From Escherichia phage HelliStehle_Bas95, in the sequence record PQ850607.1: 56,332 bases of DNA, one strand, 5' to 3'. Made by a program: the position numbers and the translations under genes. The notes under the pieces are model-generated. The model was given only the letters and a program-made list of their open reading frames with translations. It was not told the DNA's origin and ran no database searches. Shown here piece by piece: positions 1-56,332 of this stretch; within the stretch, counting starts at the first letter, position 1; each line of letters starts with the position of its first letter.

Positions 1-747
1 ATGACACCAGAAACCCGCGCGGGGTTTATCCTGGAGTACATCGAAGGCGACCTGACCGATCAGTTACTGGCGGCTAAGTACGGCCTGGATGATTACCAGT
101 TTAAGACCGCAGTACATATAGGAACCGGGAACATCATTAAGCCGGAACCGCTAACCCGTGGCCTCAAGCGTGGTATGCATAACAGCGTAGCTGTAACTAA
201 ACTCGCCACCGAAACACTTGACGCTGAAGACATGGCACTCAGTCCTCTACAATCGGCTGAGATTATCGAACCTAAGTCCCGTGACCTGGCGCTCTACCTT
301 AATAACGCGGAACTCAGCTTCGCCAACAACGTGCTCAGGGGAATGAACGCCACCGCCGCCGCCGCCGCCAGCTTTGAGATCTTCAATAAACAACTGGCTG
401 ATAAGAAGGCCGCCGAGTTATTGCGGTCATCTCACGTTGCCGACTACCTGGCGAGCATGAAGGGCCGCAGCTTATTCGCGCCAGTAAGGAACAAAGCGTA
501 TCTTGAGGCCGTGCTATGGCAGGTCATCGACCGTGGCTTACAGCTTAAGCAGGAAGTCGACACGCTTACCGGTATGCCAGTCGAGGGTCAATGCAAATAC
601 GATCCGAAGTCGGTCATTGCCGCAAGTGCGCTACTCTCACGCCTCAAAGGCTGGGATAACGTGGAACAAGGACAAGGCGAAGCAGAAACACAGCGCGACC
701 GCTTACGCCGACTGCAAGCAAACTTTAAACAGATTGGGAGTGAGTAA
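1..747 (+). CDS. hypothetical protein; candidate terminase small subunit (by position only)
   Basis: 248-aa ORF starting at window position 1; stop overlaps terL start at 747; SD AAGGA at 56319-56323 if sequence is circular. Confidence 0.5.
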   Translation: MTPETRAGFILEYIEGDLTDQLLAAKYGLDDYQFKTAVHIGTGNIIKPEPLTRGLKRGMHNSVAVTKLATETLDAEDMALSPLQSAEIIEPKSRDLALYLNNAELSFANNVLRGMNATAAAAASFEIFNKQLADKKAAELLRSSHVADYLASMKGRSLFAPVRNKAYLEAVLWQVIDRGLQLKQEVDTLTGMPVEGQCKYDPKSVIAASALLSRLKGWDNVEQGQGEAETQRDRLRRLQANFKQIGSE

Positions 748-2375
748 TGTCTAAACGTGACGTGTGGGAGTTTGAAACAGACGAAGATGTATGGCTACTG
801 GCCGACTATCTGGAACAGAAAGCCAACAGCGTTAACTTTACATTTGAGGATGACTCAGAGGTAGACGCATTCTTCCTTAAATGTAAGAACGAGTTCCAGT
901 TCTTCGCTGAACGGTGCTGTACCATCCGCACGAAGGATAACACCCTGGAGCCGATACGCCTCAACAAGGCTCAGAAGTATATGTGTGCTATTGCGGCATG
1001 GCAGGCCCATCACACCGGTAAAGTACGCCTCATTATTGTTAAGGGACGTCAGCAAGGGATGAGTACGGTTGTTCAGGCTCGTGCATTCTGGAAGACCATC
1101 CACACTGAAGCGTACAACGCGTTGATCATGGCACACCAGGCTAAGTCCTCCGCTGCACTATTCGATATGACCAAGCGTTACTATCAATATTGCCCAGAGG
1201 ACTTGCAGCCTTCCAAAGGTCACGATAACGGCTTCGTACTTAAGTTTGCTGAACTTGACTCACAATATAGCGTGGCCACCGCTGGTAGCTCTGCCGCTGG
1301 TCGTGGTATGACAGCATCTTATTTTCATGCGTCGGAAGCAGCCTACTTTGCAGATGGTGCCGAGATCGCATCAGGTATCATGCAGGCCATCCCTAACGCT
1401 GACGGTACCGAAGTATTCCTTGAGTCGACCGCTAACGGTGCGTCAGGCTACTTCTATAACCAGTGGATGCAGGCATCCCCGCCACGTGACACGTCGTTGA
1501 AGGATGCTGATAGCTCCGGGTTCATTCGCGTATTCGTACCGTGGTTCTGGCAACCTGAGTACGCTGAACCAGCACCTGAGAGCATGGTGTACACTGACGA
1601 GGAGAGTAAATACGCACGTTTACATGGTCTTACCCGTGATCAGATGTTCTGGCGTCGCATGAAGGTGAAGTCGCTTGATGGTGATACCCGTCGATTTAAC
1701 CGCGATTACCCTGCTACGGCTGAAGAAGCATTCCAGTCTACTGGTGACAACTTGCTGATCAGCGGTGATATGATCGCCTCAGCTCTCTACTGGGCACGCT
1801 CCGGTAAGCTGGACCCGGTAGGTGCTACCGTTATGGGCGTAGACGTTGCTGCTATGGGTGACGACCAGACTGCAATAGTCATTCGCCGTGGCCGCGTGGT
1901 GCAACATGCCGAGACGTTAAGTAAGGCCACCAACAGGGAGATTGCCAACCGTATTCACGTGCTGCGTGAGATGTACGGCGTCAACCACACGTTCATCGAT
2001 GGTACTGGTGGCTTTGGTACAGGTGTACATGACGTAATGACCGAGCGCGGAATGTCCCACGGTGTGACGATGGTTCACTTTGCAGAGAAGGCTACCGAAG
2101 ACCACAAGTACAACAACAAGCGCTCGGAGATGTGGGCGAAAATGCGCGACTGGCTACGTAACGCCGCCGCACTCCCGCCCGGTCATGACTGGGGTCGCGA
2201 CTTATGCGGCGCTACCTATCGCTTTGAAGGTGACAGGTTGAGACTGGAACCGAAGGCTGACATCAAGAAGCGTATCGGTCGCTCGCCGGATATCGGGGAT
2301 GCACTGGCGTTAACCTTCGCGTTCCCTGTGGTCGAGGGTGGCTACAACGACTCTTACGAGCCGGAGTACGCTTAA
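747..2375 (+). CDS. terL: terminase large subunit
   Basis: 542 aa; P-loop-like VKGRQQGMST near N-terminus, acidic nuclease-type C-terminal half; sits upstream of portal/scaffold/capsid. Confidence 0.85.
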   Translation: MSKRDVWEFETDEDVWLLADYLEQKANSVNFTFEDDSEVDAFFLKCKNEFQFFAERCCTIRTKDNTLEPIRLNKAQKYMCAIAAWQAHHTGKVRLIIVKGRQQGMSTVVQARAFWKTIHTEAYNALIMAHQAKSSAALFDMTKRYYQYCPEDLQPSKGHDNGFVLKFAELDSQYSVATAGSSAAGRGMTASYFHASEAAYFADGAEIASGIMQAIPNADGTEVFLESTANGASGYFYNQWMQASPPRDTSLKDADSSGFIRVFVPWFWQPEYAEPAPESMVYTDEESKYARLHGLTRDQMFWRRMKVKSLDGDTRRFNRDYPATAEEAFQSTGDNLLISGDMIASALYWARSGKLDPVGATVMGVDVAAMGDDQTAIVIRRGRVVQHAETLSKATNREIANRIHVLREMYGVNHTFIDGTGGFGTGVHDVMTERGMSHGVTMVHFAEKATEDHKYNNKRSEMWAKMRDWLRNAAALPPGHDWGRDLCGATYRFEGDRLRLEPKADIKKRIGRSPDIGDALALTFAFPVVEGGYNDSYEPEYA

Positions 2376-3910
2376 CGCTCCATACGGGCTGTACCAGAGT
2401 TAAACAACTGGCCGCAGCCCGCTTTCTCCCACGCATCACGCTGAGAAGTGTAGTCGCCTATCACCTTGCCCATCTCCTTCAAAGTTGACTCAATGTTAGC
2501 GTGCTGCCACTTCTGGCGACTCATGAAGTACCCGCGATCGCTCCAGATACGGAACGACTCGACCACGCTCACAACCTTGAAACCTATAGCTTCGTAAGCG
2601 CTACCGGTGAAGTAGTCATAGTCGGTGAACGTGTAGGTACAGGGTGTTCCTTTCAGCAGACGCGACAGGCCACCTTGCACTGTACATGACGTTGCATATC
2701 TCACCAGTTCCCCATCGTTGGCTACACCAATTGCAGCAACCAGACCGAGCGTCGGGTGTACCAGACCTTTGCGGATAGCTGCCACTCGCCCACGCTGAAC
2801 GTGGTTGTCTTCCATGAATGACATGTAGTCACTCGATGACAACTCAACAACCTTACACTTACGTGCGCCAACCTTTGGCTCACTCGACTTACCCAGCGCG
2901 TGCGCAATGATGCGTTCAATCTGCGGGCGACGCTCTGACCAATCCGTGGCCGACACAGAGATTAGACGGTAACCCTGAGCGTTGCAGAGTTCACGTTTCA
3001 TCATATGATAACCCTTGCGGTCCTTATGCCAGTACTCACCGTTAAACTCGATGGCAACCTTGCACGACTCGATGACGATGTCGAGTTCATAAGGTGCGAT
3101 GATGGACTTGACGTTGTGGGCAACTGTTACACCAAGTGACTCGATATACTCACGCACTTCAATCTCACCACGTGAAACCTGCGTTGACTGTGCACAATGA
3201 GGGCAACCGCTCTTATTCACGATGACATTGTTGACCCGAGCAACCCATTGCTTCCCGCAGTCACCGCACTCGAATTCGCTGTCACCCTTACTTTCTTTGT
3301 AGGTGAGTAGGGTGAGGTTGGAAGGTAAACGACGCTCAATCTCTTCACGTGGTATTACTCGCGCTTTCCCATTGCGACGTTGCCCACAACCTTTACAATA
3401 ACGCTGCCCTGTCATCACGCCGTGCGCGGATGTTTCACGCTCACACCCGCAATCAGCACAGGTGAACACGCTCTTACCTTCCGCTGTCCCACAGTATCTG
3501 ACAAGCTTCACGCCTTCCGGTAAGCGTGCAATAACATCAGATTCGCTAAGCGCGTTACGTTGAGCGGCGCACACCTTGCATCCGCTCCCTTTGGTTAACA
3601 GGTCTTTACACGTAGTTTCCCACTCGTGACCCTCAGTGCAACGGAAGGTACTGCGTTCACGCCGTGATCCACCGTAGGTGACCAGGGTGATACCTTCGGG
3701 CATTGCTGGTGCAGGTTTAACGAAGCGTTGACCGCGGTTACGCTCGGAGCACGCAGGGCAACCTGATGATCTGAATTGTGCGTTGGTTGTACGTGACCAA
3801 TGGTGGCCGCACTCGACGCAACGGAATTCACACACCTTGTCAAGTTTCAGGAGCACCACACCTTTCTGTAAGCGCGGGATAACGTCGGCGTGAGTTAGTT
3901 TAGCTGGCAT
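2372..3910 (-). CDS. zinc-ribbon repeat protein with PD-(D/E)xK (DUF559/Vsr-like) nuclease motif; putative free-standing homing endonuclease
   Basis: 512 aa; four tandem CxxC...HxW...CxxC ribbons, then ELDIV ... AIEFNGEYWH motif; opposite strand inserted between terL and tail-fibre genes. Confidence 0.65.
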   Translation of the reverse strand: MPAKLTHADVIPRLQKGVVLLKLDKVCEFRCVECGHHWSRTTNAQFRSSGCPACSERNRGQRFVKPAPAMPEGITLVTYGGSRRERSTFRCTEGHEWETTCKDLLTKGSGCKVCAAQRNALSESDVIARLPEGVKLVRYCGTAEGKSVFTCADCGCERETSAHGVMTGQRYCKGCGQRRNGKARVIPREEIERRLPSNLTLLTYKESKGDSEFECGDCGKQWVARVNNVIVNKSGCPHCAQSTQVSRGEIEVREYIESLGVTVAHNVKSIIAPYELDIVIESCKVAIEFNGEYWHKDRKGYHMMKRELCNAQGYRLISVSATDWSERRPQIERIIAHALGKSSEPKVGARKCKVVELSSSDYMSFMEDNHVQRGRVAAIRKGLVHPTLGLVAAIGVANDGELVRYATSCTVQGGLSRLLKGTPCTYTFTDYDYFTGSAYEAIGFKVVSVVESFRIWSDRGYFMSRQKWQHANIESTLKEMGKVIGDYTSQRDAWEKAGCGQLFNSGTARMER

Positions 3911-5166: not shown

Positions 5167-6435
5167 ATGGCAATCACAAGTTATAAGGCGGTCGTGGGCT
5201 ACTACAATAGCGCCGGGACGCCCAGCATTACTACGGCTGTTACAGGCCAGTTGTCGGACGGGTGGATCCCTATCGGTGCGCCTATCCTGACCGACGCATA
5301 CGGGCAGTGTACTCAGATGATGGCAAAGACTGACGCTACGCCAGTTATCGCTACGTCAGCTTACACCGTGGTTACGGCAGCCAACCCGCAGCCGCCGGAC
5401 GCTACCTGGGATGCTCAGGGTGAGCCGCTATGGATTGACACGACCACGTATCTCCAGGCGTACACTAAGGGCGGCGCGTATCTGCAAGGTGTAATCAATT
5501 TAGGGTCCAGTCAGGTGACAGGTACGTTACCTGTTGCTAACGGGGGCACAGGTGCTAATGACGCTGCTACAGCACGTGCAAACTTAGGTTTAGGTGCAGT
5601 AGCCACACTCAACACTATTCCTGTTGCTAACGGGGGTACCGGTGCTAATGACGCTGCTACAGCACGTGCAAACTTAGGTTTAGGTTCGACAGCTACCCTA
5701 AATATCATACCTGTTGCTAATGGTGGTACAGGTGCTAGTGATGCTGCTGGTGCAAGGAGCAATCTAGGAGCACTGAGTAATACCCCAGCAAACACAGGTA
5801 CAGGCGGTATTGGTGCGCGAGTCCAGCATGCCTCCGGGGGCGGTCTGTTTAATTTAGACATGTTTAACTGCTACTGGTACATGCAGCCAGAGGATACTAA
5901 CTTCTGGATTGCCCACGGTGTGTCATATGCAGGAGCTGGTGGCGAAGCCTCAAACTACGGTCGTGTAGCTTACGCAATAAAAATCGCAGATGGAACAATA
6001 AAATATGTCCAGTGTCGTACAGACAAAAATACCACTGTCGACGTAAACGGGTTTATCAAAGCTGCATCTCCGGTAGTTAATATTTATGCCAATGGTCGAT
6101 ATGAAACGAATGATGAATCTGAGAAGGTCAGTGTCATTCGGCAGGGTGTTGGTGAATATCTGATTACCGGTTGCCTCGGTTTAAACGCAGACGCACGCTG
6201 GGGAGGTATCGACGGCGGCTTTGAAATTCCTGTTGACCGGAACAAACAACCCAGGGTTTGGCTGGATTATGATGTTAAAGAAGATGGTTCTATTTTAGTT
6301 AAGACCTATCATAGAACCCATTCAACATCCCCAGCTTTTGCTAGAAACGAGTTGGAAGGTTTTTCTGACGGCGACCCGATCGACATTCCCGCCGATGCTT
6401 TCGTATCAGTTCGTGTCGAAATGCCTTCTGAGTAA
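5167..6435 (+). CDS. tail fibre protein with collagen-like repeats
   Basis: 422 aa; three tandem 30-aa repeats PVANGGTGANDAATARANLGLG...; globular C-terminal domain. Confidence 0.75.
   Translation: MAITSYKAVVGYYNSAGTPSITTAVTGQLSDGWIPIGAPILTDAYGQCTQMMAKTDATPVIATSAYTVVTAANPQPPDATWDAQGEPLWIDTTTYLQAYTKGGAYLQGVINLGSSQVTGTLPVANGGTGANDAATARANLGLGAVATLNTIPVANGGTGANDAATARANLGLGSTATLNIIPVANGGTGASDAAGARSNLGALSNTPANTGTGGIGARVQHASGGGLFNLDMFNCYWYMQPEDTNFWIAHGVSYAGAGGEASNYGRVAYAIKIADGTIKYVQCRTDKNTTVDVNGFIKAASPVVNIYANGRYETNDESEKVSVIRQGVGEYLITGCLGLNADARWGGIDGGFEIPVDRNKQPRVWLDYDVKEDGSILVKTYHRTHSTSPAFARNELEGFSDGDPIDIPADAFVSVRVEMPSE
5530..5799 (+). repeat. 3 x 90-bp in-frame tandem repeat (collagen-like fibre repeat)
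   Basis: CCTGTTGCTAACGGGGG unit starts at 5530, 5620, 5710; third copy diverged. Confidence 0.8.
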
Positions 6436-21133: not shown

Positions 21134-22116
21134 TGAGCATCGGTGAAGCACTGGCGTCAATGTTTGCGGGTGCCGCTGGCGAAGCAGCAGGTAATCGGGC
21201 GGTAGAGATCCGCGACGAAGAAAAGGCACGCATCGCTGAAGCACGCGAAATGAAAATGATGGCACTCCAGCAGAAGTACCAGACGTCCGAGCGTGAGGCC
21301 AGTCAGGCTTACGGCACCGCTGAGCGTCAGGATACTCAGGGTTGGCAGTCTGGCGAGAAGCAGAAAGACCGTGACTTCCAGTCGTCTGAACGTGCTGCGT
21401 CTCAATCCTTCCAGGCGGTACAATCGGATAAAGCGCGTGCTTACCAGGACGCTAAAGAGAAGAAAGCGCAACTGGCGGCACAACAAGAATCCGCAGCGGC
21501 GGTAGGTAGTGTTGACGATTTAGGTAACGCTATCAAACTCGACGGTACACCTTATAAATTGGGTGGCCAGTGGTTGCGCGCTAAACAGTATGCTAACGGT
21601 CGCATTGTGGCTGAACCGCTGGGTGCTACCGCTGCCGAGAAGATGGATAGACGCGTAGCGCTTGAGAATGACGACGGTGACACGCAGAAGTCTCGTGATC
21701 TCACAATCGTTAAAGAAGGTATTAAATCCGGCGACACAACAGGTGTATTCGGTTCGTTTATCAACGCAGGCAACATGGCAGGTGACCTGGCGAGTGCTAA
21801 ACTCGGTAGCGAGAAATCACGCGATGTTTACAACGCTGTAAACCGTATCAATGGTGCGTTGTTGGCACAAGGCGTGGCCGATGCGAAAGCGATGGGTGCA
21901 TCGGGCATCAACACCGCGGCAGAAGCACAGATGTACTTCAAAGGATTGCCGTCGCTTGACTTGTCAAGCCCCGAAGCAGCAATGCGTGCCATTAACCAAA
22001 TCGATGCGTATAATAAAGACTTCAAGCAAAAGCAGCGGCAAGAAGTCGGGCTACCAGCGAACCCCGTGTCTAAACAAAGTAGCGACGGGTCGTTCGGTAG
22101 CAAATACGGTTATTGA
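21133..22116 (+). CDS. hypothetical virion protein
   Basis: 327 aa. Confidence 0.5.
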   Translation: MSIGEALASMFAGAAGEAAGNRAVEIRDEEKARIAEAREMKMMALQQKYQTSEREASQAYGTAERQDTQGWQSGEKQKDRDFQSSERAASQSFQAVQSDKARAYQDAKEKKAQLAAQQESAAAVGSVDDLGNAIKLDGTPYKLGGQWLRAKQYANGRIVAEPLGATAAEKMDRRVALENDDGDTQKSRDLTIVKEGIKSGDTTGVFGSFINAGNMAGDLASAKLGSEKSRDVYNAVNRINGALLAQGVADAKAMGASGINTAAEAQMYFKGLPSLDLSSPEAAMRAINQIDAYNKDFKQKQRQEVGLPANPVSKQSSDGSFGSKYGY

Positions 22117-22122
22117 TTCAAG

Positions 22123-22142
22123 CCGCCCTACGGGGCGGTTTT
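22123..22142 (+). terminator. intra-operon terminator/attenuator hairpin
   Basis: CCGCCC-tacg-GGGCGG followed by TTTT. Confidence 0.5.
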
Positions 22143-22157
22143 CACAGGAGTACTATC

Positions 22158-24362
22158 ATGGCACGTCCTTTTTCTGAAATCGCAGCATCCCCCGAGTTTC
22201 AGGCTGAAACACCGGAGACTCAGGAAGCAATCAAACAAGACTATTTCAATAAGGTGATCCGCCCACAGGTTGAGGCCAATGGGGACGACCCTGACGAGGT
22301 TTTCAACGACTTCTCGTCAAAGTACACATTCAAACAACCTGAAGCGCCTGTGCAGCAACCTGAAGCGCCTGTGCCGCAACAACAGGTTCAACCTTCACCG
22401 GAAGAACAGCAGGCCGCAGCAACCGTTCAGAACTATCTGAACAAGCCCGCTGAAACAGGTTACACCCTGGCCTCATCAGGTAGTGAACCACAGGAAACTA
22501 ATACCGGTATCATCGGTGCTATCAAAAATGCTGTTACTGGTGGTGACGCGGCGGAAGGTAGTGCCGCAAGTTTACCTCTGGCAGGTGAAGCGCCTGAGTT
22601 CTTTGGTAACGGTGTGGACGAAGAACTGAAGAACGGCGACGCACTAGACCAAATGCTCAATTGGGCTGGCAACAGGCTCGGAGGCATCGCTACGAATATG
22701 TTTGGTGGTGACGATTCAATCATCAAACGTGCGGAGTCTCGCGGTGGTAAGGTGTCACAGGATGAGCAGGGTAATGTAATCATTACTTTCCCGTCGGGTA
22801 AATATCAGGTTAACAAACCCGGTCTGGACATCAACGACGTTGCTAAATTTACGGCACAGGCAGCCCCTGCGGTCGCTACAGGTGGAGCGGGTGCAGCATT
22901 AGGTCTCGGCGGACGAATGGTCGCGCAGGGAGCGATTCAGGGCGGTTTAAACTACGCTCAGCAAAAAGCTGTAGAAGCTGGCGACGGTCAGAATGTTGAC
23001 ATGGGTGATGTTGCACTTAACGCGACACTGGGTGGTACTGGTGAGTTACTTGGCCCGGCCCTGCGCGGTGGTCGTGAAATTTTCAAACGCGGCTTAGGTA
23101 ATGCTGACGAGGCCACGAAAGAAGCGTTGAAGATTGCCGACGAAACAGGTATCCCAATCGCCACTTCCGACATGATTGCCGCAGGTGATCTCGGTGGCGG
23201 TGTAACAAAATACGCATCTGCGGTTACAGACAAGCTCGACCCGTTTGCCGCAGGTCGCCTGCGGCAACAGGAACTGATCCCGGAAAAGACCGCCGACATT
23301 TTTGTTGACCCTGAAGTCGCCGCAAAATATACAGACGAAGCTATGATTGAAGCGCTTGATAAAGGTAGTCGCGCACGCATGGCCGACGCTGGTAAACGCT
23401 TCGAAGAAGTGAAGACAGCTATGGGTGACCAGCCGATTCCCGTCCGAAATACCTCAGCGGCTATTGACGACGTGCTGAAAGAATGGGAACGCCCTGGGAC
23501 ACTCGTCGACAAAGGTGACATTGAATACCTGAAAGACATTCAGGCGAAGCTCACAGAAGCGCCACAAGATGTGATTATGCTTCGCGAAAACCGCACGCGC
23601 CTGCGTCAGTCGTTCGGATCCGGTATGAACAAAATGCTGGGTAAAAATGACCTTCAGAAAGCAGGGCGTAAAATTTACGACGCTTTGACTAAGGACATGC
23701 ACGAAGGTGTTGAAAACACGCTGGGTGCTGATGCTTTGACAACGCTCAAATCGGCCGACAAAGACTGGGCGTCTATCAATAGCGATTTAGGTTTCCAGAA
23801 AATTGCGGCAGCCGTTAAGAAAGGCGAGGCCGACCCCGCGCGACTGCGTGAAACGTTAACATCATTCGGCACGGGCGATCTACAAGCGCTTGACCGCAAT
23901 CTCAACGCCGAAGGTCGGAATATGATCAAAGGCGCTGTACATAAAAACTTAATGGCAGCTGCAACCAACGCTGACGGAGAATTTCAACCAGGGGCAATGT
24001 TGCGTGCCATTGAGAAAAACAAGGACGTCATCAAGCAGTTCTACACTCCCGAACAGGCCAAGCAGATTGAAGGTGTGAAGAAACTTCTGTCCACTGCGCG
24101 CGGTGCTAAGGCTGCAACGACCATTGCTAACAACGGTGGCTTGATGCTTCCTATCACTGCGGCGATGGGTGTTGGTTCGGCGGGAATCGGTGGTATTGCG
24201 GCGGCTGCGGGTGGTATTGCGGCTAAACGTTTGAGTAACTCTCGCCCAATGCGAAACGCGCTGATTCGTCTGTCCACCATGAAACCCGGCAGCATGGCCT
24301 ATTACAAGACAGTGAGACAAATCAACGCGATCATCGCGAATCAAGCATCTACCGACGAGTGA
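22158..24362 (+). CDS. large virion protein (possible internal/injection protein)
   Basis: 735 aa from ATG 22158 with SD ACAGGAG; last gene of the + morphogenesis block. Confidence 0.5.
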   Translation: MARPFSEIAASPEFQAETPETQEAIKQDYFNKVIRPQVEANGDDPDEVFNDFSSKYTFKQPEAPVQQPEAPVPQQQVQPSPEEQQAAATVQNYLNKPAETGYTLASSGSEPQETNTGIIGAIKNAVTGGDAAEGSAASLPLAGEAPEFFGNGVDEELKNGDALDQMLNWAGNRLGGIATNMFGGDDSIIKRAESRGGKVSQDEQGNVIITFPSGKYQVNKPGLDINDVAKFTAQAAPAVATGGAGAALGLGGRMVAQGAIQGGLNYAQQKAVEAGDGQNVDMGDVALNATLGGTGELLGPALRGGREIFKRGLGNADEATKEALKIADETGIPIATSDMIAAGDLGGGVTKYASAVTDKLDPFAAGRLRQQELIPEKTADIFVDPEVAAKYTDEAMIEALDKGSRARMADAGKRFEEVKTAMGDQPIPVRNTSAAIDDVLKEWERPGTLVDKGDIEYLKDIQAKLTEAPQDVIMLRENRTRLRQSFGSGMNKMLGKNDLQKAGRKIYDALTKDMHEGVENTLGADALTTLKSADKDWASINSDLGFQKIAAAVKKGEADPARLRETLTSFGTGDLQALDRNLNAEGRNMIKGAVHKNLMAAATNADGEFQPGAMLRAIEKNKDVIKQFYTPEQAKQIEGVKKLLSTARGAKAATTIANNGGLMLPITAAMGVGSAGIGGIAAAAGGIAAKRLSNSRPMRNALIRLSTMKPGSMAYYKTVRQINAIIANQASTDE

Positions 24363-26679: not shown

Positions 26680-26905
26680 TGATCTCCGCCTTAGCTTTCT
26701 TAGCTTTGATGACGCGACTAATCGCCACCAGTAAAGTGATAACACCAGACACGACCGGGAGATATTCCTCCGGTACCACAGCCTGGAATAAATGTGGGGC
26801 AGTTTGCCACACGATGAGTGCTGCGTCAGGTACGGTGGTCAGTACGGTGGTCACAGCGATACCAATAGTAATACCAGCATCATGCAATGCTTTAGATTTA
26901 TCCAT
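26672..26905 (-). CDS. holin-like small membrane protein
   Basis: 77 aa, two hydrophobic helices and basic C-terminus; immediately downstream of endolysin. Confidence 0.55.
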   Translation of the reverse strand: MDKSKALHDAGITIGIAVTTVLTTVPDAALIVWQTAPHLFQAVVPEEYLPVVSGVITLLVAISRVIKAKKAKAEING

Positions 26906-44730: not shown

Positions 44731-44759
44731 AATATAGGTTAGTTAAATCTGACTGTCAA
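44731..44759 (-). promoter_or_regulatory. near-consensus sigma70 promoter TTGACA-17-TATATT
   Basis: read on - strand. Confidence 0.6.
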
Positions 44760-46668: not shown

Positions 46669-46697
46669 AATTTAGTATAGTCGTCCCTGACTGTCAA
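46669..46697 (-). promoter_or_regulatory. sigma70-type promoter TTGACA-17-TAAATT
   Basis: shares ACTTGACAGTCAG core with promoter at 44731-44759. Confidence 0.5.
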
Positions 46698-48877: not shown

Positions 48878-48906
48878 AATATAATTGATGGCTTCCATGC
48901 CGTCAA
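48878..48906 (-). promoter_or_regulatory. near-consensus sigma70 promoter TTGACG-17-TATATT
   Basis: TACTTGACG core as in other early promoters. Confidence 0.55.
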
Positions 48907-51686: not shown

Positions 51687-51905
51687 TTACTGCGGCGCTA
51701 CTACCCGGAAGAAATCGAAATCTTTCGGTGTAGCCTTTTTAAGTTTATCCAGTCTGGTGATAGTCATCGGTTCACAGGGCCAACTTACCGTCGCGCCTAA
51801 CTGTGGCTTGCTTGCCAGCACGCTAAACGTTTCCGGTTCCTCGTCGAAAACATAACCCAGGGTGTGACCGTTCATTACGTAATATGTAGCGTTGAAGTGT
51901 TTCAT
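51687..51905 (-). CDS. hypothetical protein
   Basis: 72-aa ORF downstream of repeated promoter/hairpin cassette. Confidence 0.5.
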   Translation of the reverse strand: MKHFNATYYVMNGHTLGYVFDEEPETFSVLASKPQLGATVSWPCEPMTITRLDKLKKATPKDFDFFRVVAPQ

Positions 51906-51917
51906 GATGTTTCTCTC

Positions 51918-51995
51918 TCTGTTTGAGGTGCGAAGCGGTATCGCCTCCCGATGAATTAAAGATACTACTAAACAGATTTAGCGTCAAGTAATTTG
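51918..51995 (-). repeat. about 78-bp promoter + leader-hairpin cassette, copy 1
   Basis: TTGACG(51981-51986)-17-TATCTT(51958-51963), then hairpin GAGGTGCGAAGCGGTATCGCCTC in leader. Confidence 0.6.
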
Positions 51996-52324
51996 TTTAA
52001 ATTAATTACCAATTTGATGTAGTCGATGGCGTCATCCAGTGTCCTGACGTGTACCGGGGGACGGTCCCGCAGATGCACAATCACGTAATTGGTGTGTCGA
52101 ATGCAGCGCGCGAACTCGTCGCCGTCCGGGTAACGCACAGACACAACCGGACCGACTTGCGATACTACGTAACCCTCGATAACCGGATTGCGCACCGGGC
52201 GCTCAGCAGGCGGTGCCAAATCTATGATCGCATCCTTAAGCCAGGCGGTGACCTCTGCGGCTGATTTGCCGTTTTCCAGGGCGTGCAGTGCATTGATAAT
52301 ATTTGCGCGTGCCGTATTACACAT
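51968..52324 (-). CDS. hypothetical protein
   Basis: 118-aa ORF. Confidence 0.5.
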   Translation of the reverse strand: MCNTARANIINALHALENGKSAAEVTAWLKDAIIDLAPPAERPVRNPVIEGYVVSQVGPVVSVRYPDGDEFARCIRHTNYVIVHLRDRPPVHVRTLDDAIDYIKLVINLNKLLDAKSV

Positions 52325-52718
52325 AATTGGTACCTTTGATTGAGCAGGTTAGAAATAGATCCATTATTGTATTAGTCCACTGTTCCCGGTCGCCTTCCTG
52401 ATCGGCCAGTTTGAACATTTCCACGTTAGGCGCTACCAGGTAGACGGCGTTCGACGTGAACGACAGGCGCACGCTGGAGTAATTGAGGCACTCATTGACA
52501 GCGTGACGCGTGTCATCGGTGCAATGTCTGGTACTCCACATGAAATCAAATTTACTATCAGGGCGGTGAACGCGTACAGCAATCTCGCCGCCTTCCATCT
52601 GTACGATCCCGTAGTGTCGCCCGGTTGACTGGTTGCGCACCCTGGCCGCTTTGATAGCCGCCGGAATGGACGAGTAGTGCCGATAACCTGGCGCACCTTT
52701 AAGCTGGTTAGCGTGCAT
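52317..52718 (-). CDS. hypothetical protein
   Basis: 133-aa ORF. Confidence 0.5.
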   Translation of the reverse strand: MHANQLKGAPGYRHYSSIPAAIKAARVRNQSTGRHYGIVQMEGGEIAVRVHRPDSKFDFMWSTRHCTDDTRHAVNECLNYSSVRLSFTSNAVYLVAPNVEMFKLADQEGDREQWTNTIMDLFLTCSIKGTNYV

Positions 52719-52826
52719 TGGTGTTAGCCTTATCGCAAAGCCATTCGATTAGCTCATAAGCCGGGGCCGTCTTAGGGATAATGCAGGCGTAATCTTCACG
52801 CAGTTTTTGATAGTGGCTTAACGTTT

Positions 52827-53081
52827 TCATTTGGTTAACTCCTTGATAGCTGCGTTAGCGTAACGCTTTGCGTCACCGTAAGCGTTGGGTGTATGGCGTG
52901 ACTCGCGGTGACCTGCAAACCACGCGTTGACTAATAGCTCTTTGACTAACTCACTGTTGAGCAGGTCAAACGCGCCGCTAGTGTAAGGATGCGTGTAAGG
53001 GTTGGCCTTATCACGCTGCGTCGGGTCGCGGTCCTTGTCCGTCATGTGGGCGTTGTTGATCCACTTCTCGAACTCTGTCAT
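52827..53081 (-). CDS. hypothetical protein
   Basis: 84-aa ORF. Confidence 0.5.
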   Translation of the reverse strand: MTEFEKWINNAHMTDKDRDPTQRDKANPYTHPYTSGAFDLLNSELVKELLVNAWFAGHRESRHTPNAYGDAKRYANAAIKELTK

Positions 53082-53237
53082 TTAAATTTACCCTCCAGTA
53101 TTTTAGCGATGACCGCATCAATCCACATGTCACGCTGCGATGGCTCATAGGTCTGGCTGAGAACCTGGCCGATAGTGGCACCGGGGGCAAACGTGGTAAT
53201 CAGGATCACCGTTTGCCCGATAAACTTTAGCTTAAGG

Positions 53238-53528
53238 TTACTGATTGTTTGCATGGTCTTTCACCCACTTGATGCGCTCAGGGTTAGTGTGCATAGCCCG
53301 ATTCTTTAAATCTATATCGAACTGAGGTACGCCGCCGAACGGGTACAATGAATCGAGTCCGGCCTCTACGAATTGCTTTTTGATTTCCCTAAGACGTACG
53401 CGGTATGGTCGTTTCATTGCTTGCGAGCATAACCCTTCGCCGCGCGTGAACTGTTTATCGTCTTCCGGTGCGCCAGCGTCAAGCCAGGTCGCATAGTCGT
53501 TATAGAATTGCTGAAGTGTTTTATTCAT
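53238..53528 (-). CDS. hypothetical protein
   Basis: 96-aa ORF. Confidence 0.5.
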   Translation of the reverse strand: MNKTLQQFYNDYATWLDAGAPEDDKQFTRGEGLCSQAMKRPYRVRLREIKKQFVEAGLDSLYPFGGVPQFDIDLKNRAMHTNPERIKWVKDHANNQ

Positions 53529-53663
53529 TTGATGAGATCCTCTATAGCTAAGTGGATACCTACCAGCCGCGCCCGGTCACGCTGGGCTTTAATGCGGCTT
53601 ACTACAGTGGCGAGGGACTCCCCGCCGTTCAGGGTGATTTTAAATATGGCCGTTACCCGGCTG

Positions 53664-53957
53664 TTATATTTTACGCAGAGCGTTAATGGCGTCATTGTAA
53701 TACCCCATCATTTCTATAATAAGGCGCTGACTCACGTCCTCGCCGGTCCAGATTAGCCAGTCGCCGGGTGACGCGTTGGCGATAAACTCCTCCCAGTAGC
53801 CCAGGTCACGCGCCGAGAGTACCTGGCGTGCGGCAAACTGGTGGCGGCAATCGAAGCCAGCGTCAAAGATTTGCTGACAGATAGCGGCCAGGGTGGGGCG
53901 TAATGCAAGTTTGCGGAAGTAGCGCGCGGCTTCAGCGTCGATAATTTGATTGGTCAT
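53664..53957 (-). CDS. hypothetical protein
   Basis: 97-aa ORF downstream of cassette copy 2. Confidence 0.5.
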   Translation of the reverse strand: MTNQIIDAEAARYFRKLALRPTLAAICQQIFDAGFDCRHQFAARQVLSARDLGYWEEFIANASPGDWLIWTGEDVSQRLIIEMMGYYNDAINALRKI

Positions 53958-53974
53958 GATATTTCTCGCTCTTA

Positions 53975-54052
53975 GTTGAGGTGGGAAGCCGTATTGCCTC
54001 CCGATGAATTAAAGATACTACTAATTAGAGTTAGCGTCAAGTAATTTGTTTA
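53975..54052 (-). repeat. about 78-bp promoter + leader-hairpin cassette, copy 2
   Basis: TTGACG(54035-54040)-17-TATCTT(54012-54017), then hairpin GAGGTGGGAAGCCGTATTGCCTC. Confidence 0.6.
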
Positions 54053-54373
54053 TGAGTTTGCGTGATAGATTTCGGGTAATGCATCATAACGCGTATTGTG
54101 GTCAATAGCCGCGAAGCATTCACTAGGCCCCGAAAGGTTGTGATACTCGGTACCGTCCAGCAATGTGACGCTCCACACGTTACCCAGACAACGGATGTGA
54201 ATGTCGCCCAGCTTATAATCGCCAGAGTCACACTTAACGAAACCGCGCGAGGTTAACATGTGGTTGATTGCGTAAGCGAGTAGCGAATCATAGTTAACGT
54301 CAATCATCCCGTTATACTGGTATTCAAGATACATGCGCCAGGATGGTAATGCCGTGCGATTGTGAATGAACAT
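54050..54373 (-). CDS. hypothetical protein
   Basis: 107-aa ORF. Confidence 0.5.
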   Translation of the reverse strand: MFIHNRTALPSWRMYLEYQYNGMIDVNYDSLLAYAINHMLTSRGFVKCDSGDYKLGDIHIRCLGNVWSVTLLDGTEYHNLSGPSECFAAIDHNTRYDALPEIYHANS

Positions 54374-54519
54374 ACCAATCCTTAACGCCGAGGAATGTTT
54401 CCACCTGGTCGCGCTCTACTGGTCCGCGAGCGGCATAGTTTGCGAAGTCTGCCTGATGACCTTTGTGGTTGATATACGATTTGAACATGTTTATTGCCTC
54501 TTTAAGTTAGATTAGTTGC

Positions 54520-54774
54520 TTACTTATGCTTAGGTTGCCAGTGTTTTAAGAGCACCTCCTTATCTTCAGGGTAATTTAACGAAGCACTCGCCGAAAATGT
54601 GCTCATGGTTGTGTAAACCTTACCGCCTACCATAAAACTTTCACTGCGTTGATGCGGTACCTCGACACGGCGACCGGAAGGTAGTACGCCTACAAAGGTA
54701 TCTCCGACTATTGACGACTTACCAAGCTGTAACCCACCCGGACAAACGTTATTGAACACGTCGTAAGGTCTCAT
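54520..54774 (-). CDS. hypothetical protein
   Basis: 84-aa ORF. Confidence 0.5.
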   Translation of the reverse strand: MRPYDVFNNVCPGGLQLGKSSIVGDTFVGVLPSGRRVEVPHQRSESFMVGGKVYTTMSTFSASASLNYPEDKEVLLKHWQPKHK

Positions 54775-55814
54775 AATTTAATCTCCCGTTTAAAGTTATC
54801 AGCTTTATTAGCGTTACTGGCATTGCGCATCAACATATAAGCCTGCATGGCCTCGCGGATCACGTGGCGGATGTGCTGCAGTATATCGAAGTGTCCCCCG
54901 GTTAAGCCTGGAGTGGTCAAAGCAATATTATTAATCCACGCCATATCTTCAGGGTATTCCATCACATCCTTACCCGTCTTGAGTCTGCCGCCAACACCAA
55001 CACCCTTGGCGTCCGTGTAGCGCAGGCTCCAGTCTTTGCGACCCTGGAGGCAAGGCAACTTATCATAAAGGTAAGCTACCGCAGGCGCTGGCGGCTCATT
55101 AACCCACATAAAAGCCATAGTGTCATGATGGTAGACGCTGGCCCGTGCCTGGCGGTAACGCTCAGACGCTGAATCAACGCACTTAACACAGCCGCCGTTG
55201 GACGTGTAGCGTTGAGTGGATGCGCAACGTTTGCAGGGTGTCGACTCGTAGAACTTTAAGCCCTGCTCTAAAGCCTGGCCTCGCGGCGACTCAACGCTTG
55301 GCCCTTTAATGCACATCACACAGCCGCCGTTAGAGGTGAAGCGCTCCGTAGTCCCACACTTACCACAAGGTGAACCGTCGTACCTTTTGAGGCCATTGGC
55401 TTTAGCTAACTGGCGGGGAGTCGGTGTACGGTCAAGCGGCTTTAAGCTGGCAATATGACATTGCTGACATTTTGTGGTTGTCACCAGTCTTGTGGTTGAA
55501 CCACATTTAACGCACGGCTGCCCTTCATATGTTTTAGCACCCGACGCTTTAGCTGCGATGCGTGCATCTACTATCGGCGACGGTCGACCGCCTCCACATC
55601 CTTTGCGCTGACACTCAACACAGGAACCGTTAGCTGTGTAACGTTCAGATCGCACACCTTCAAAACATTGTATACAAGGGCGTCCCCAGTAACGAGGGTT
55701 GCGCTCGGCGCGCGCTTCTCTTCTTGAGTCGGCTGGCGGTTGCCGCTTCCCTTTCTCCTCAGGTACGTTCTCATCCATCCAGGCGAAAACTTCGTTCATG
55801 TCTAACTCTTCCAT
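54771..55814 (-). CDS. early protein with five tandem zinc-ribbon repeats
   Basis: 347 aa; repeats of Y-x-G-x-PC-x-KCG-(S/T)-T-x-R-(Y/F)-T-S-N-G-x-C-V-x-C; first gene after the leftward early promoter. Confidence 0.6.
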   Translation of the reverse strand: MEELDMNEVFAWMDENVPEEKGKRQPPADSRREARAERNPRYWGRPCIQCFEGVRSERYTANGSCVECQRKGCGGGRPSPIVDARIAAKASGAKTYEGQPCVKCGSTTRLVTTTKCQQCHIASLKPLDRTPTPRQLAKANGLKRYDGSPCGKCGTTERFTSNGGCVMCIKGPSVESPRGQALEQGLKFYESTPCKRCASTQRYTSNGGCVKCVDSASERYRQARASVYHHDTMAFMWVNEPPAPAVAYLYDKLPCLQGRKDWSLRYTDAKGVGVGGRLKTGKDVMEYPEDMAWINNIALTTPGLTGGHFDILQHIRHVIREAMQAYMLMRNASNANKADNFKREIKL

Positions 55815-55846
55815 TGGTATACCTCCAGTTGTTTAGTTGAGATTGC

Positions 55847-55875
55847 AGTTTACTACAGGTTAGATAGCAGGTCAA
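55847..55875 (-). promoter_or_regulatory. leftward early promoter TTGACC-17-TAAACT
   Basis: read on - strand; AT-rich upstream region; about 26-nt leader with SD GGAGGT. Confidence 0.45.
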
Positions 55876-55881
55876 CTAACC

Positions 55882-56055
55882 AAACTCGTAGCCCTCCTAA
55901 AATATTCAAAAACTTTCTTAGAAATTTTGTAGAACACTAACTAAGTAATACTTATATATCTAACTTAATATACTATAATCTATTGCTTGCGATAATATAT
56001 ATCTAACTTAATGTACTATTCAGCAGCTTAAATATTTTGGGTGGGCTACGAGTTT
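55882..56055. repeat. control-region repeats: 13-bp inverted repeat pair flanking two 24-bp direct repeats
   Basis: AAACTCGTAGCCC (55882-55894) / GGGCTACGAGTTT (56043-56055); TATATATCTAACTTAAT(A/G)TACTAT at 55953-55976 and 55996-56019; CTAACTAAGTAA at 55937 and 56141. Confidence 0.6.
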
Positions 56056-56267
56056 AATACTTTAACGTTAGGTCTAACCTATACGTGGGTCTTCTTCTCT
56101 TCCTTCCAAATATTTTCAGGGTGCTAACACCCGTGGCCCCCTAACTAAGTAAAGCAGCCGTTAGCATCTAACTAAGCTCAAAGTTTAGCCAATTCCTGTA
56201 GCGCTATGCGAAATCTAAGAAAGCAGCAGGGTAAGACATCTGGCCTTTTTACGCAGACGCGCGATAT

Positions 56268-56311
56268 TTGTGTGACACGCATCACACTGTTATGATGTGC
56301 AGGTGATCACA
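56268..56311 (+). promoter_or_regulatory. candidate rightward promoter for gene 1, overlapped by two CRP-like sites
   Basis: TTGTGT-17-TATGAT (56268-56296); TGTGA-N6-TCACA at 56271-56286 (perfect half-sites) and TGTGC-N6-TCACA at 56296-56311. Confidence 0.4.
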
Positions 56312-56332
56312 AACACCTAAAGGAATGACGTC

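What the first reader, a model, noticed from the sequence alone, without database searches (positions are those of the whole stretch)
51918..54052. Duplicated 78-bp promoter plus leader-hairpin cassette
Two copies about 2.06 kb apart (51918-51995 and 53975-54052) are nearly identical across the promoter (TTGACG-17-TATCTT), a CCCGATGAATTAAAGATACTACTAA segment and a conserved stem-loop (GAGGTG...CGCCTC) that falls in the 5' leader just upstream of the SD. Base differences inside the hairpin preserve pairing. The structure could be an RNase III site, attenuator or riboregulator controlling two early genes, and the duplication suggests modular promoter mobility.
Basis: seen in the sequence. Interest (0 to 1): 0.5.

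Follow-up and report, generated by a model that had tools for sequence, protein, structure and literature searches.

The report
Duplicated portable early promoter–leader cassette
Two copies of a roughly 95-bp unit, made of a host-type promoter and a short hairpin at the very start of the transcript, head two early operons of this E. coli phage; its core is also found in unrelated phages and in the CUP promoter repeats of IncN plasmids, so it looks like a shared, exchangeable expression module and not a special riboregulator.

Summary
The repeat is real: 51923-51999 and 53976-54052 are 92% identical over 77 nt, and similarity continues with one indel to both ATGs. There are exactly two copies in the genome. 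The genes lie on the minus strand. Read there, each copy is AATTAC-TTGACG-17-TATCTT-TAATTC-A(+1)TC-GGGAGGC/GCUUCCC hairpin, then a purine-rich weak SD and ATG.

The differences between the copies are not compensatory.

The hairpin has 7 bp and no U-tract, so it does not fit an RNase III site or an attenuator.

The core TAATTC-ATCGGGAGGCAATACCGC sits at the same distance from a -10 box in Dhillonviruses, jumbo phages, Vibrio and Aeromonas phages, and in 827 mostly conjugative plasmids; those inspected are IncN CUP promoters. It also resembles T7 A1.

The stem is 92% paired across 24 variants, with two compensatory changes, but the 5' half is more conserved than the 3' arm.

In relatives, the gene slot just downstream of each copy varies, and PTXU04 and Pondi lack copy 2.

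Best reading: a portable strong sigma-70 early promoter with a conserved initial transcribed region that forms a 5'-terminal hairpin, lying at recombination-prone module borders. I score it as a new member of a known kind, of moderate interest.

The parts
51903..51999 (-). Cassette copy 1, full unit: A/T-rich upstream AAACAAATTAC, promoter, leader, through the ATG
   Evidence: Orthologous to the single copy of PTXU04 (L001 3047-3090) and Pondi (L002 3706-3749).
51982..51987 (-). Copy 1, -35 hexamer TTGACG
   Evidence: The 17-nt spacer was counted in the sequence.
51959..51964 (-). Copy 1, -10 hexamer TATCTT
51952..51952 (-). Copy 1, predicted transcription start: the A of CATC, 7 nt after the -10 hexamer
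   Evidence: Inferred, not mapped. In all promoter-bearing instances inspected in every lineage, the core starts 6-7 nt after a -10 hexamer.
51930..51949 (-). Copy 1, leader hairpin GGGAGGCG-AUAC-CGCUUCGC (+4 to +23), -9.0 kcal/mol
   Evidence: model hit 51924-51955
51687..51905 (-). 72-aa ORF (MKHFNATYY...) driven by copy 1; phrog_11458, function unknown
   Evidence: In NODE-206 another gene lies between the cassette and this ORF.
53955..54052 (-). Cassette copy 2, full unit, starting directly after the TAA (54050-54052) of the upstream 107-aa ORF
   Evidence: Absent at this position in PTXU04 and Pondi; present in NODE-206.
54035..54040 (-). Copy 2, -35 hexamer TTGACG
54012..54017 (-). Copy 2, -10 hexamer TATCTT
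54005..54005 (-). Copy 2, predicted transcription start
   Evidence: Inferred in the same way as for copy 1.
53983..54002 (-). Copy 2, leader hairpin GGGAGGC-AAUACG-GCUUCCC, -11.1 kcal/mol
   Evidence: model hit 53977-54008
53664..53957 (-). 97-aa ORF (MTNQII...), first gene of the operon headed by copy 2
   Evidence: no family match
51968..53957 (-). Block of eight small ORFs (97, 56, 96, 58, 84, 40, 133 and 118 aa) bracketed by the two direct repeats. The last ORF's 3' end overlaps the -35 hexamer and spacer of copy 1 (stop TAG at 51968-51970).

Best explanation
Each copy is a compact, portable early expression module read by the host sigma-70 RNA polymerase. It consists of an A/T-rich upstream stretch, TTGACG-17-TATCTT and an A/T-rich discriminator. 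These are followed by a strongly conserved initial transcribed region, AUCGGGAGGC(A/G)AUAC(C/G)GC.... With its 3' complement this region folds into a 7-bp hairpin that starts 3 nt from the predicted 5' end.

The purine-rich GGGAGG at +4 to +9 is proposed to favour promoter escape. The 5'-terminal hairpin is proposed to protect the transcript's 5' end from 5'-end-dependent decay (RppH, RNase E) and to make expression independent of whichever small gene follows.

The two copies divide the right-arm early region into separate transcription units: copy 2 heads an eight-gene block and copy 1 heads the next block.

Because the unit is repeated and shared between genomes, it also acts as a patch of homology at which genes are gained, lost and swapped. 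This is what is described for IncN CUP repeats and T4-type PeSLs.

Shown: the repeat, the fold, the fixed promoter-to-core geometry across lineages, and the mosaic junctions.
Inferred: the start site, promoter strength, any stabilising or escape effect, and recombination at the cassette.
For: - Repeat and uniqueness.
- Promoter hexamers with a 17-nt spacer.
- In all promoter-bearing instances inspected, the core ATCGGGAGGCAATACCGC starts 6-7 nt after a -10 hexamer with a -35 hexamer 17-18 nt upstream, while the spacers are unrelated. This holds in Xuquatrovirus, Dhillonvirus, Eneladus/Mimas jumbo phages, Vibrio phage 1.187.O, ABPH49, Aeromonas PCAh2, a 153-kb UViG, and IncN1/IncN2 plasmids.
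- The plasmid copies precede leading-region genes such as ccgD and lie beside ardR and ardB. They match the CUP promoters, which are described as ArdK-controlled promoters (PMC5371602, PMC6289460).
- Hairpin on the mRNA strand. Across 24 variants, 92.3% of cells are paired against 48-63% for slid partners, with two compensatory changes. NODE-206 copy 2 has a C-to-U change that keeps G.U pairing.
- Phage McMelon has a second copy of the hairpin without a promoter, and its stem is perfect.
- GG/GA near +6 and high purine content favour promoter escape (PMC5961368). T7 A1 shares TATTGACTT, GATACTTA and ATCG-GAGG with the IncN1 form.
- A base-paired 5' end slows RNase E (review PMC3997798, citing Emory 1992 and Bouvet & Belasco 1992).
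- Mosaic junctions and variable downstream slots.
- No RNA polymerase family matched any of the seven large ORFs scanned, including the 749-954-aa ones, so the phage probably depends on host RNAP.
Against: - No start site has been mapped for this phage.
- The consensus promoter scan alone is not significant: 16 sites found against 13 expected.
- Three unpaired 5' nucleotides are at the upper limit for protection from RppH and RNase E.
- The A4:U17 pair is broken in 9 of 24 variants, and the 3' arm is less conserved than the 5' arm and loop. Structure alone therefore does not explain the sequence conservation.
- Covariation support is weak: 14 of 500 shuffles reach the observed value. The sample was also collected with seeds from the 5' half.
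- Recombination at the cassette is inferred from comparisons and was not observed.
Confidence: 0.6

Rival explanations
1. The conserved block is essentially a DNA or initial-transcription element, that is, a discriminator plus initial transcribed sequence tuned for open-complex behaviour and fast escape, as in T7 A1. The RNA hairpin is incidental. (This overlaps with the best explanation and differs only in denying the hairpin a role.)
For: - The 5' half and loop are invariant or nearly invariant, while the 3' arm varies: GCUUCCC, GCCUCCC, GCCGCCC, GCUGCCC, GCCACCC, GCCAACC, GCAACCC.
- The A4:U17 pair is unpaired in 9 of 24 variants.
- The distance to the -10 hexamer is rigidly fixed.
- T7 A1 shares the first 9 transcribed nucleotides in 8 of 9 positions.
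- GG/GA near +6 favours escape (PMC5961368).
- IncN leaders can pair the same 5' segment with other downstream partners (sequences).
Against: - A promoter-less intercistronic copy in McMelon keeps a perfect 7-bp stem.
- Two compensatory changes occur: C3-G18 in Aeromonas PCAh2 and A5-U16 in XbC2. One-sided changes are G-C/G.U.
- Pairing is 92% in register against 48-63% when partners are slid.
Confidence: 0.2
2. The +1 to +23 segment is a sequence-specific binding site for a trans-acting factor. Candidates are a DNA operator or roadblock just downstream of the start site, an RNA-binding protein, or the 30S subunit binding the SD-like GGGAGG as a 5' stabiliser or standby site.
For: - Sequence, and not only structure, is conserved, including the loop AAUAC, across very different mobile elements.
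- In 5,426 E. coli genomes, 891 of 898 matching places are on plasmids.
- GGGAGG is a strong SD-like sequence. It is followed in Xuquatroviruses by anti-SD-like CCCACCUC.
Against: - No regulator is known to be shared by these phages and plasmids.
- The known CUP regulator ArdK binds direct repeats at the -35 box, not downstream (PMC9723621).
- GGGAGG is sequestered in the stem with predicted pairing probability near 1.
- No start codon follows it at SD spacing (sequence).
Confidence: 0.12
3. One reading: the hairpin is an RNase III processing site, a transcription attenuator, or a riboregulator that gates translation of the two downstream genes.
For: A stable hairpin lies in the 5' leader of both genes.
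Against: - The stem has only 7 bp and no extended duplex, whereas RNase III substrates need about 20 bp (established knowledge).
- No U-tract follows the hairpin, and the terminator scan lists nothing there.
- The SD and AUG lie outside the hairpin and are mostly unpaired.
- There is no Rfam match.
- The same hairpin precedes unrelated genes at variable distances.
Confidence: 0.04

Closest known systems
CUP (conserved upstream) promoter repeats of IncN plasmids (pKM101/R46; Delver & Belogurov 1997, as described in PMC5371602, PMC6289460, PMC3490853)
   Same: - The core TAATTC-ATCGGGAGGCAATACCGC is identical at 24 of 25 positions for each window copy.
- It sits at the same distance from a near-consensus sigma-70 promoter.
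- It occurs in several copies per replicon, in front of small genes that are expressed first on entry.
- The repeats are documented substrates for deletion and inversion by recombination (PMC5371602, PMC3490853).
   Different: - Similarity is limited to about -7 to +18. The longer conserved upstream part of CUP, the hexamers (TTGACT/GATACT or GATAAT) and the spacers all differ.
- Whether the phage copies carry ArdK operator repeats at the -35 box was not tested.
- The plasmid 3' arm has G or A at position 17, which gives a mismatch in the stem.
- There are two copies here, against 3-14 per plasmid.
PeSL (promoter-early stem-loop) cassettes of T4-type phages (Arbiol et al. 2010, PMC2839356; Comeau et al. 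2014, PMC4122927)
   Same: - These are short repeated cassettes with a strong sigma-70-like early promoter, an A/T-rich upstream region and a stem-loop.
- They flank small ORFans in a hyperplastic early region.
- They are associated with insertion, deletion and replacement of neighbouring genes.
   Different: - In PeSLs the G/C-rich stem-loop lies upstream of the promoter and acts as a terminator for incoming transcription.
- Here the stem-loop is downstream of the start site, has no U-tract, and becomes the 5' end of the transcript.
- There is no sequence similarity.
- Mini-circle formation was not tested.
Phage T7 early promoter A1
   Same: - It is a strong E. coli RNAP early promoter near a genome end.
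- The initial transcript AUCGAGAGG matches AUCGGGAGG here.
- The IncN1 form of the cassette also shares TATTGACTT and GATACTTA with A1.
   Different: - The hexamers in the window are TTGACG/TATCTT.
- A1 has a 7-nt discriminator instead of 6 nt.
- A1 lacks the GGGAGGC/GCYUCCC hairpin.
- The resemblance may be convergence on an efficient escape sequence.
5'-terminal stabilising stem-loops (ompA and papA 5' UTRs; T7 gene 10 leader GGGAGACCACAACGGUUUCCC)
   Same: - A hairpin lies within a few nucleotides of the 5' end.
- The T7 g10 hairpin has a very similar design (GGGAG..C / G..UUCCC with a G.U pair at the same place) and a similar energy: -12.2 against -9 to -14 kcal/mol.
- The T7 g10 sequence and its stabilising role are from memory. 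The role of the 5' end in decay is taken from PMC3997798.
   Different: - The T7 g10 leader is made by T7 RNAP from a class III promoter.
- Stabilisation has not been tested for this element.
- Three unpaired 5' nucleotides are borderline for protection.

Membership tests
IncN CUP promoter repeat | Promoter-proximal consensus (discriminator plus first ~18 transcribed nt) TAATTCATCGGGAGGCAATACCGC at a fixed distance from the -10 box | tested here: met
   Copy 1 and copy 2 each match at 24 of 25 positions. The geometry is identical to L010, L011, L013 and L018.
IncN CUP promoter repeat | ArdK operator (direct repeats flanking or overlapping the -35 box) and regulation by ArdK | not tested
   The upstream sequence differs from the plasmid form (AAATTACTTGACGCTAA against CTTGTATTGACTTYAAAGG). 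The phage copies were not compared with the pKM101 ArdK operator, and the window was not searched for an ardK homologue. The operator position is taken from PMC9723621.
IncN CUP promoter repeat | Extended conserved repeat upstream of the promoter, present in several copies heading leading-region operons | tested here: not met
   BLAST similarity covers only query positions 6-30/35 of the 42-nt query. There are two copies only.
PeSL cassette (T4-type phages) | Strong sigma-70-like early promoter with an A/T-rich upstream region, repeated in a hyperplastic region next to ORFans | tested here: met
PeSL cassette (T4-type phages) | Stem-loop located upstream of the promoter and acting as a terminator | tested here: not met
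   The hairpin lies at +4 to +23, downstream of the promoter, with no U-tract. The PeSL layout is from PMC2839356.
PeSL cassette (T4-type phages) | Recombination between copies, giving indels and mini-circles | not testable with these tools
   There is comparative evidence only. The gene slots adjacent to the cassettes vary between the window, NODE-206, PTXU04 and Pondi. McMelon has a gene flanked by two hairpin copies.
5'-terminal mRNA-stabilising hairpin | Stable stem-loop within about 2-4 nt of the primary 5' end | tested here: inconclusive
   The hairpin is predicted with probability near 1 and starts 3 nt after the inferred +1. The start site itself is inferred from promoter geometry and has not been mapped.
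5'-terminal mRNA-stabilising hairpin | Removal of the hairpin shortens mRNA half-life in an RNase E/RppH-dependent way | not testable with these tools
   This needs experiments.
RNase III processing site | Extended double-stranded stem of about two helical turns | tested here: not met
   The stem has 7 bp at most. No longer duplex appears in the minimum-free-energy or centroid structures.
Intrinsic terminator / attenuator | G+C-rich hairpin followed directly by a U-tract | tested here: not met
   The hairpin is followed by ACCUCAA. The terminator scan lists no site there.
Any Rfam family | Match to a curated covariance model | tested here: not met
   Only two chance-level hits (E 6.5 and 8.6), both elsewhere in the 2.6-kb region.

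The most novel reading that the evidence does not exclude
The first ~23 transcribed nucleotides (AUCGGGAGGCAAUACCGCYUCCC) could be a sequence-specific module. It would be exchanged horizontally among lytic phages of at least six lineages and IncN conjugative plasmids, marking the very first transcripts made when foreign DNA enters an enterobacterial cell. It would work through a specific partner that has not been identified, such as a host RNA or DNA-binding factor, the ribosome, or a defence or anti-defence component, and not merely through generic 5' structure or promoter escape.
Probability: 0.12. Interest if true: 0.75.

Novelty: new member of a known kind. Interest (0 to 1): 0.45.

Why it matters
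- **Annotation.** It defines two early transcription units and their probable start sites in a poorly annotated phage genus (Xuquatrovirus). It also marks the positions where small early genes are being swapped.
- **Spread.** A ~25-nt promoter-proximal block known from IncN plasmid CUP repeats also heads early genes in several unrelated phage groups. I found no paper in the searchable library that prints this sequence. This suggests either exchange of regulatory parts between phages and conjugative plasmids, or strong convergent selection on the first transcribed nucleotides of entry genes. Both options can be tested.
- **Practical use.** It is a compact natural "promoter plus 5' insulator hairpin" part.

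Tried and rejected
- **Rfam scan of 51700-54300 at E up to 10:** nothing relevant.
no better than shuffles on the + strand. On the mRNA strand it has a C.A mismatch and -4.3 kcal/mol.
- **RNase III site or terminator:** the stem is too short and there is no U-tract.
- **N4-type virion-RNAP hairpin promoter.** I considered this because PTXU04's capsid is annotated as N4-like. I rejected it because no RNAP family matches the large ORFs scanned, and because the same element occurs behind sigma-70 promoters in siphoviruses and plasmids.
- **boxA-like CGCTCTTAA right after the hairpin** (Kaldavass, L007): absent from the window copies (ACCTCAA), so it is not a general feature.
- **Upstream mini-ORF using GGGAGG as its SD:** no start codon at the right spacing.
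- **More copies in the window:** fuzzy regex and the covariance model give none. The 12.7-bit hit at 26788-26818 lies in coding sequence and has no promoter.
- **Genome-contig hits in non-enterobacterial MAGs** (L014-L017, L019, L020, L024, L025): no promoter context, so they are chance matches of a 19-mer.
- **The hit in Kayfunavirus RDN8.1:** it lies inside a coding sequence, so I treated it as chance.
- **Function of the flanking ORFs:** Pfam gives nothing and PHROGs gives only families of unknown function.
- **Donor of the block 54053-56200:** no nucleotide match in the phage collection.
- **Literature search for the core sequence:** no paper found. The 1993 and 1997 CUP papers are not held in the library.
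Full report
**1. Observation**

The two segments exist. The repeat finder gives 51923-51999 and 53976-54052: 77 nt without gaps, 92% identical, 2053 nt apart. A 45-nt degenerate pattern of the unit matches exactly twice, with none expected in 100 shuffles. A covariance model of the leader scores the two sites at 45.2 and 40.5 bits, and the next best site in the window at 12.7 bits.

All ORFs in this region are on the minus strand, so the unit must be read there:

- AAACAAATTAC, then TTGACG (-35; 51987-51982 and 54040-54035)
- a 17-nt spacer, then TATCTT (-10; 51964-51959 and 54017-54012)
- TAATTC, then ATC
- GGGAGGC(G/A)AUAC(C/G)GCUUC(G/C)C, then ACCUCAA
- a purine-rich weak SD, then ATG (51905 and 53957)

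Similarity continues with one indel to both ATGs, so the whole units are 51903-51999 and 53955-54052.

**2. The hairpin**

That strand folds no better than shuffled sequence (z about -0.2). On the mRNA strand the same pairing has a C.A mismatch and only -4.3 kcal/mol.

The favoured structure on the mRNA strand pairs GGGAGGC with GCUUC(G/C)C. The hairpin alone has -9.0 kcal/mol in copy 1 and -11.1 in copy 2. The leader z-scores are -1.9 and -2.7.

The three differences between the copies inside the hairpin are not compensatory. Copy 1 has an extra G8-C13 pair and a G2.G19 mismatch, and copy 2 has the reverse. A five-pair core is common to both.

The stem is too short for RNase III. It is followed by ACCUCAA and not by a U-tract, and the terminator scan lists nothing there. 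The SD and AUG lie 20-25 nt downstream and are mostly unpaired. Rfam has no match.

**3. Genome context**

The window is related at about 84% identity to the Xuquatroviruses PTXU04 and Pondi, which are E. coli phages of 60-62 kb. The metagenome contig ERZ808028 NODE-206 (59.5 kb, 80-95% identical) shows that the window's two ends are contiguous, so the window is a whole, circularly permuted genome.

None of the seven large ORFs scanned, including the 749-954-aa ones, matches an RNA polymerase family; they match DNA transfer protein, helicase, portal, amidase, primase, DNA polymerase and HNH endonuclease. Transcription by host RNAP is therefore the expectation.

Other minus-strand promoter-like sites in the early arm (44759, 46697, 48906) share the ATTAC-TTGAC context but not the leader. 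The ORFs behind the cassettes have no known function.

**4. Comparative anatomy within the genus**

PTXU04 and Pondi each have one copy, orthologous to copy 1. At the copy-2 position they have GGGGCCATCG(T/C)GCCCC plus an SD instead. NODE-206 has both copies at the same two positions, so the duplication is older than the split between the window phage and NODE-206.

Homology to PTXU04 and Pondi runs from 51884 to about 53967. It breaks at the start codon behind copy 1 and immediately upstream of copy 2, and 54053-56200 has no nucleotide match in the phage collection.

The slot directly behind each copy is variable.

| Genome | Behind copy 1 | Behind copy 2 |
|---|---|---|
| NODE-206 | MTTITTK gene, then MKHFNATYY gene | extra ~70-aa gene, then MSNQIID |
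| Window | MKHFNATYY gene only, fused at the ATG | MTNQIID directly |
| PTXU04, Pondi | MQTIITK gene only | no cassette at this position |

The discriminator variant AAATCACT occurs at position 1 in PTXU04 and at position 2 in NODE-206, so cassette variants do not follow position strictly.

**5. The core is shared far beyond this genus**

BLAST with the leader finds the block CATCGGGAGGCAATACCGC(Y)TCCC in several groups:

- many Dhillonviruses
- the Eneladus/Mimas jumbo phages (Serratia BF, Erwinia Kaldavass and pEa_SNUABM phages, Xanthomonas XbC2)
- Vibrio phage 1.187.O
- phage ABPH49
- Aeromonas phage PCAh2
- a 153-kb viral contig

It also occurs in 202 of 5,426 complete E. coli genomes, where 891 of 898 places are on plasmids. 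It is present in 827 PLSDB plasmids at 3,156 places, and 777 of these plasmids are conjugative. The plasmid copies precede leading-region genes such as ccgD and an LPD29-domain gene, next to ardR and ardB. This identifies them as the CUP repeats of IncN plasmids, which are ArdK-controlled promoters of the leading region (PMC5371602, PMC6289460, PMC3490853).

In all promoter-bearing instances inspected, the block begins 6-7 nt after a -10 hexamer, with a -35 hexamer 17-18 nt further upstream, while the spacers are unrelated. That geometry places +1 at the A of CATC. It is the main evidence that these are promoters, because the consensus scan alone is not significant (16 found against 13 expected).

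Hits in non-enterobacterial MAGs lack any promoter and are chance matches. ArdK binds direct repeats at the -35 box (PMC9723621), so the shared downstream block is not the ArdK operator.

The IncN1 form (TATTGACTT...GATACTTA...ATCGGGAGG) closely resembles T7 promoter A1 (TATTGACTT...GATACTTA...ATCGAGAGG).

**6. Structure or sequence?**

On 24 distinct variants the 7-bp stem is paired in 92.3% of cells, against 48-63% when the partners are slid. There are two compensatory changes: C3-G18 in Aeromonas PCAh2 and A5-U16 in XbC2. One-sided changes are G-C/G.U. Only 14 of 500 shuffles reach the observed covariation.

The A4:U17 pair is broken in 9 of 24 variants (IncN plasmids, Ioannina, L012, Vibrio, Aeromonas). 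The 5' arm and loop are nearly invariant, while the 3' arm takes at least seven forms. The sample was collected with seeds in the 5' half, which inflates this asymmetry. It is nevertheless also seen among paralogous copies within single plasmids.

Dhillonvirus McMelon carries a second copy 324 nt downstream of the first. It has the hairpin and the AACCAC discriminator but no -35 or -10 box. The two copies flank a 111-aa gene that is not at this position in Sponge or slur05, where the first hairpin is followed directly by the MKAYEYCKN gene. Both sequence and structure therefore appear to be under selection.

**7. Mechanism**

My best reading is a portable strong sigma-70 early promoter whose conserved initial transcribed region serves two purposes.

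- The purine-rich GGGAGG at +4 to +9 fits the reported preference for GG/GA near +6, and for purines generally, in fast promoter escape (PMC5961368).
- The hairpin that starts 3 nt from the 5' end should hinder 5'-end-dependent decay, because a base-paired 5' end slows RNase E (PMC3997798 and references therein). It would also buffer expression against whatever gene follows.

A hairpin of very similar design heads T7 gene 10 mRNA (from memory; its energy was computed).

The repeated unit also lies exactly where genes are gained, lost or replaced. This matches what is documented for CUP repeats (PMC5371602, PMC3490853) and PeSLs (PMC2839356). PeSLs differ in having the stem-loop upstream of the promoter as a terminator.

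The start site, the promoter strength, the stabilising and escape effects, and recombination at the cassette are all inferences.

**8. Verdict**

The RNase III, attenuator and riboregulator ideas are not supported, and the promoter-mobility idea is supported.

The element is a phage member of a known kind: a repeated early promoter cassette whose core is shared with IncN CUP promoters. The cross-element distribution of the core is the most interesting part, and I did not find it described in the searchable literature.

Noticed in passing
window 55850-56330: The non-coding right-end region is dense in repeats. A 24-nt direct repeat TATATATCTAACTTAATATACTAT occurs twice (55953-55976 and 55996-56019). 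There is a 56-nt imperfect inverted repeat (55854-55909 / 56028-56083, 73% complementary). A 22-nt repeat ending in CTAACTAAG occurs at 56128-56176. A promoter-like site is at 55875-55847. This could be an origin, a regulatory region or the first early promoter cluster.
   Followed up: no
window 1-1756 and 54427-56332 vs L040: In metagenome contig ERZ808028 NODE-206 the window's last and first bases are adjacent. The window is therefore a complete, circularly permuted genome of 56.3 kb, about 5 kb shorter than PTXU04. The 2197-aa PTXU04_00025 has no ORF of comparable length in the window; the largest virion-type ORF there is 749 aa (22113-24362).
   Followed up: partly
L030 (phage McMelon) 24398-24753, minus strand: There are two copies of the leader hairpin 324 nt apart. 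The first has a promoter. The second has only the AACCAC discriminator and the hairpin. They flank an extra 111-aa gene (CDS0030) that is not at this position in Sponge or slur05, which looks like a gene insertion bounded by the element.
   Followed up: partly
L001 6610-6650 and L002 6825-6860, minus strand: At the position of cassette copy 2, PTXU04 and Pondi have a G/C hairpin GGGGCCATCG(T/C)GCCCC followed by a CAGGAGA SD. It resembles the polyG/polyC stem-loops of PeSLs.
   Followed up: no
L006, L007, L026, L005 (jumbo phages), just after the hairpin: The hairpin is followed by (C)GCTCTTAATCAGGAG in Kaldavass and L007, ACTCTTAATCAGGAG in XbC2, and TTCTTAATCAGGAG in BF. CGCTCTTAA is identical to the lambda nutL boxA as I remember it. 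The window copies have no equivalent.
   Followed up: no
window 44731-44759, 46669-46697, 48878-48906, minus strand: Three further near-consensus promoters (10-11 of 12 matches) share the (A)TTAC-TTGAC upstream context with the cassette but have different leaders. The leader at 44730-44700 has its own inverted repeat TACCC...GGGGTA overlapping the SD region.
   Followed up: no
window 5530-5799: Three tandem 90-bp repeats (86% and 61% identity to the first) lie in a + strand ORF. The repeat is in frame (30 codons). It may be a tail-fibre repeat domain.
   Followed up: no
window 55176-55643: Three diverged 36-nt repeats (AACGCACTTAACACAGCCGCCGTTGGACGTGTAGCG and variants) lie inside the 347-aa minus-strand ORF 54771-55814. 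They suggest an internally repeated protein of unknown function, and Pfam has no match.
   Followed up: no
window 2372-3910, minus strand: A 512-aa HNH/homing endonuclease ORF (phrog_559, E 5e-78) lies antisense, directly after the 542-aa + strand ORF 747-2375 and overlapping its last 4 nt. This suggests a mobile endonuclease insertion.
   Followed up: no
window 51687-51905: The 72-aa gene behind copy 1 (phrog_11458) has a weak nucleotide match to a hypothetical gene of the T4-like Yersinia phage JC221 (75% over 88 nt). It may be an ORFan shared between unrelated phage groups.
   Followed up: no
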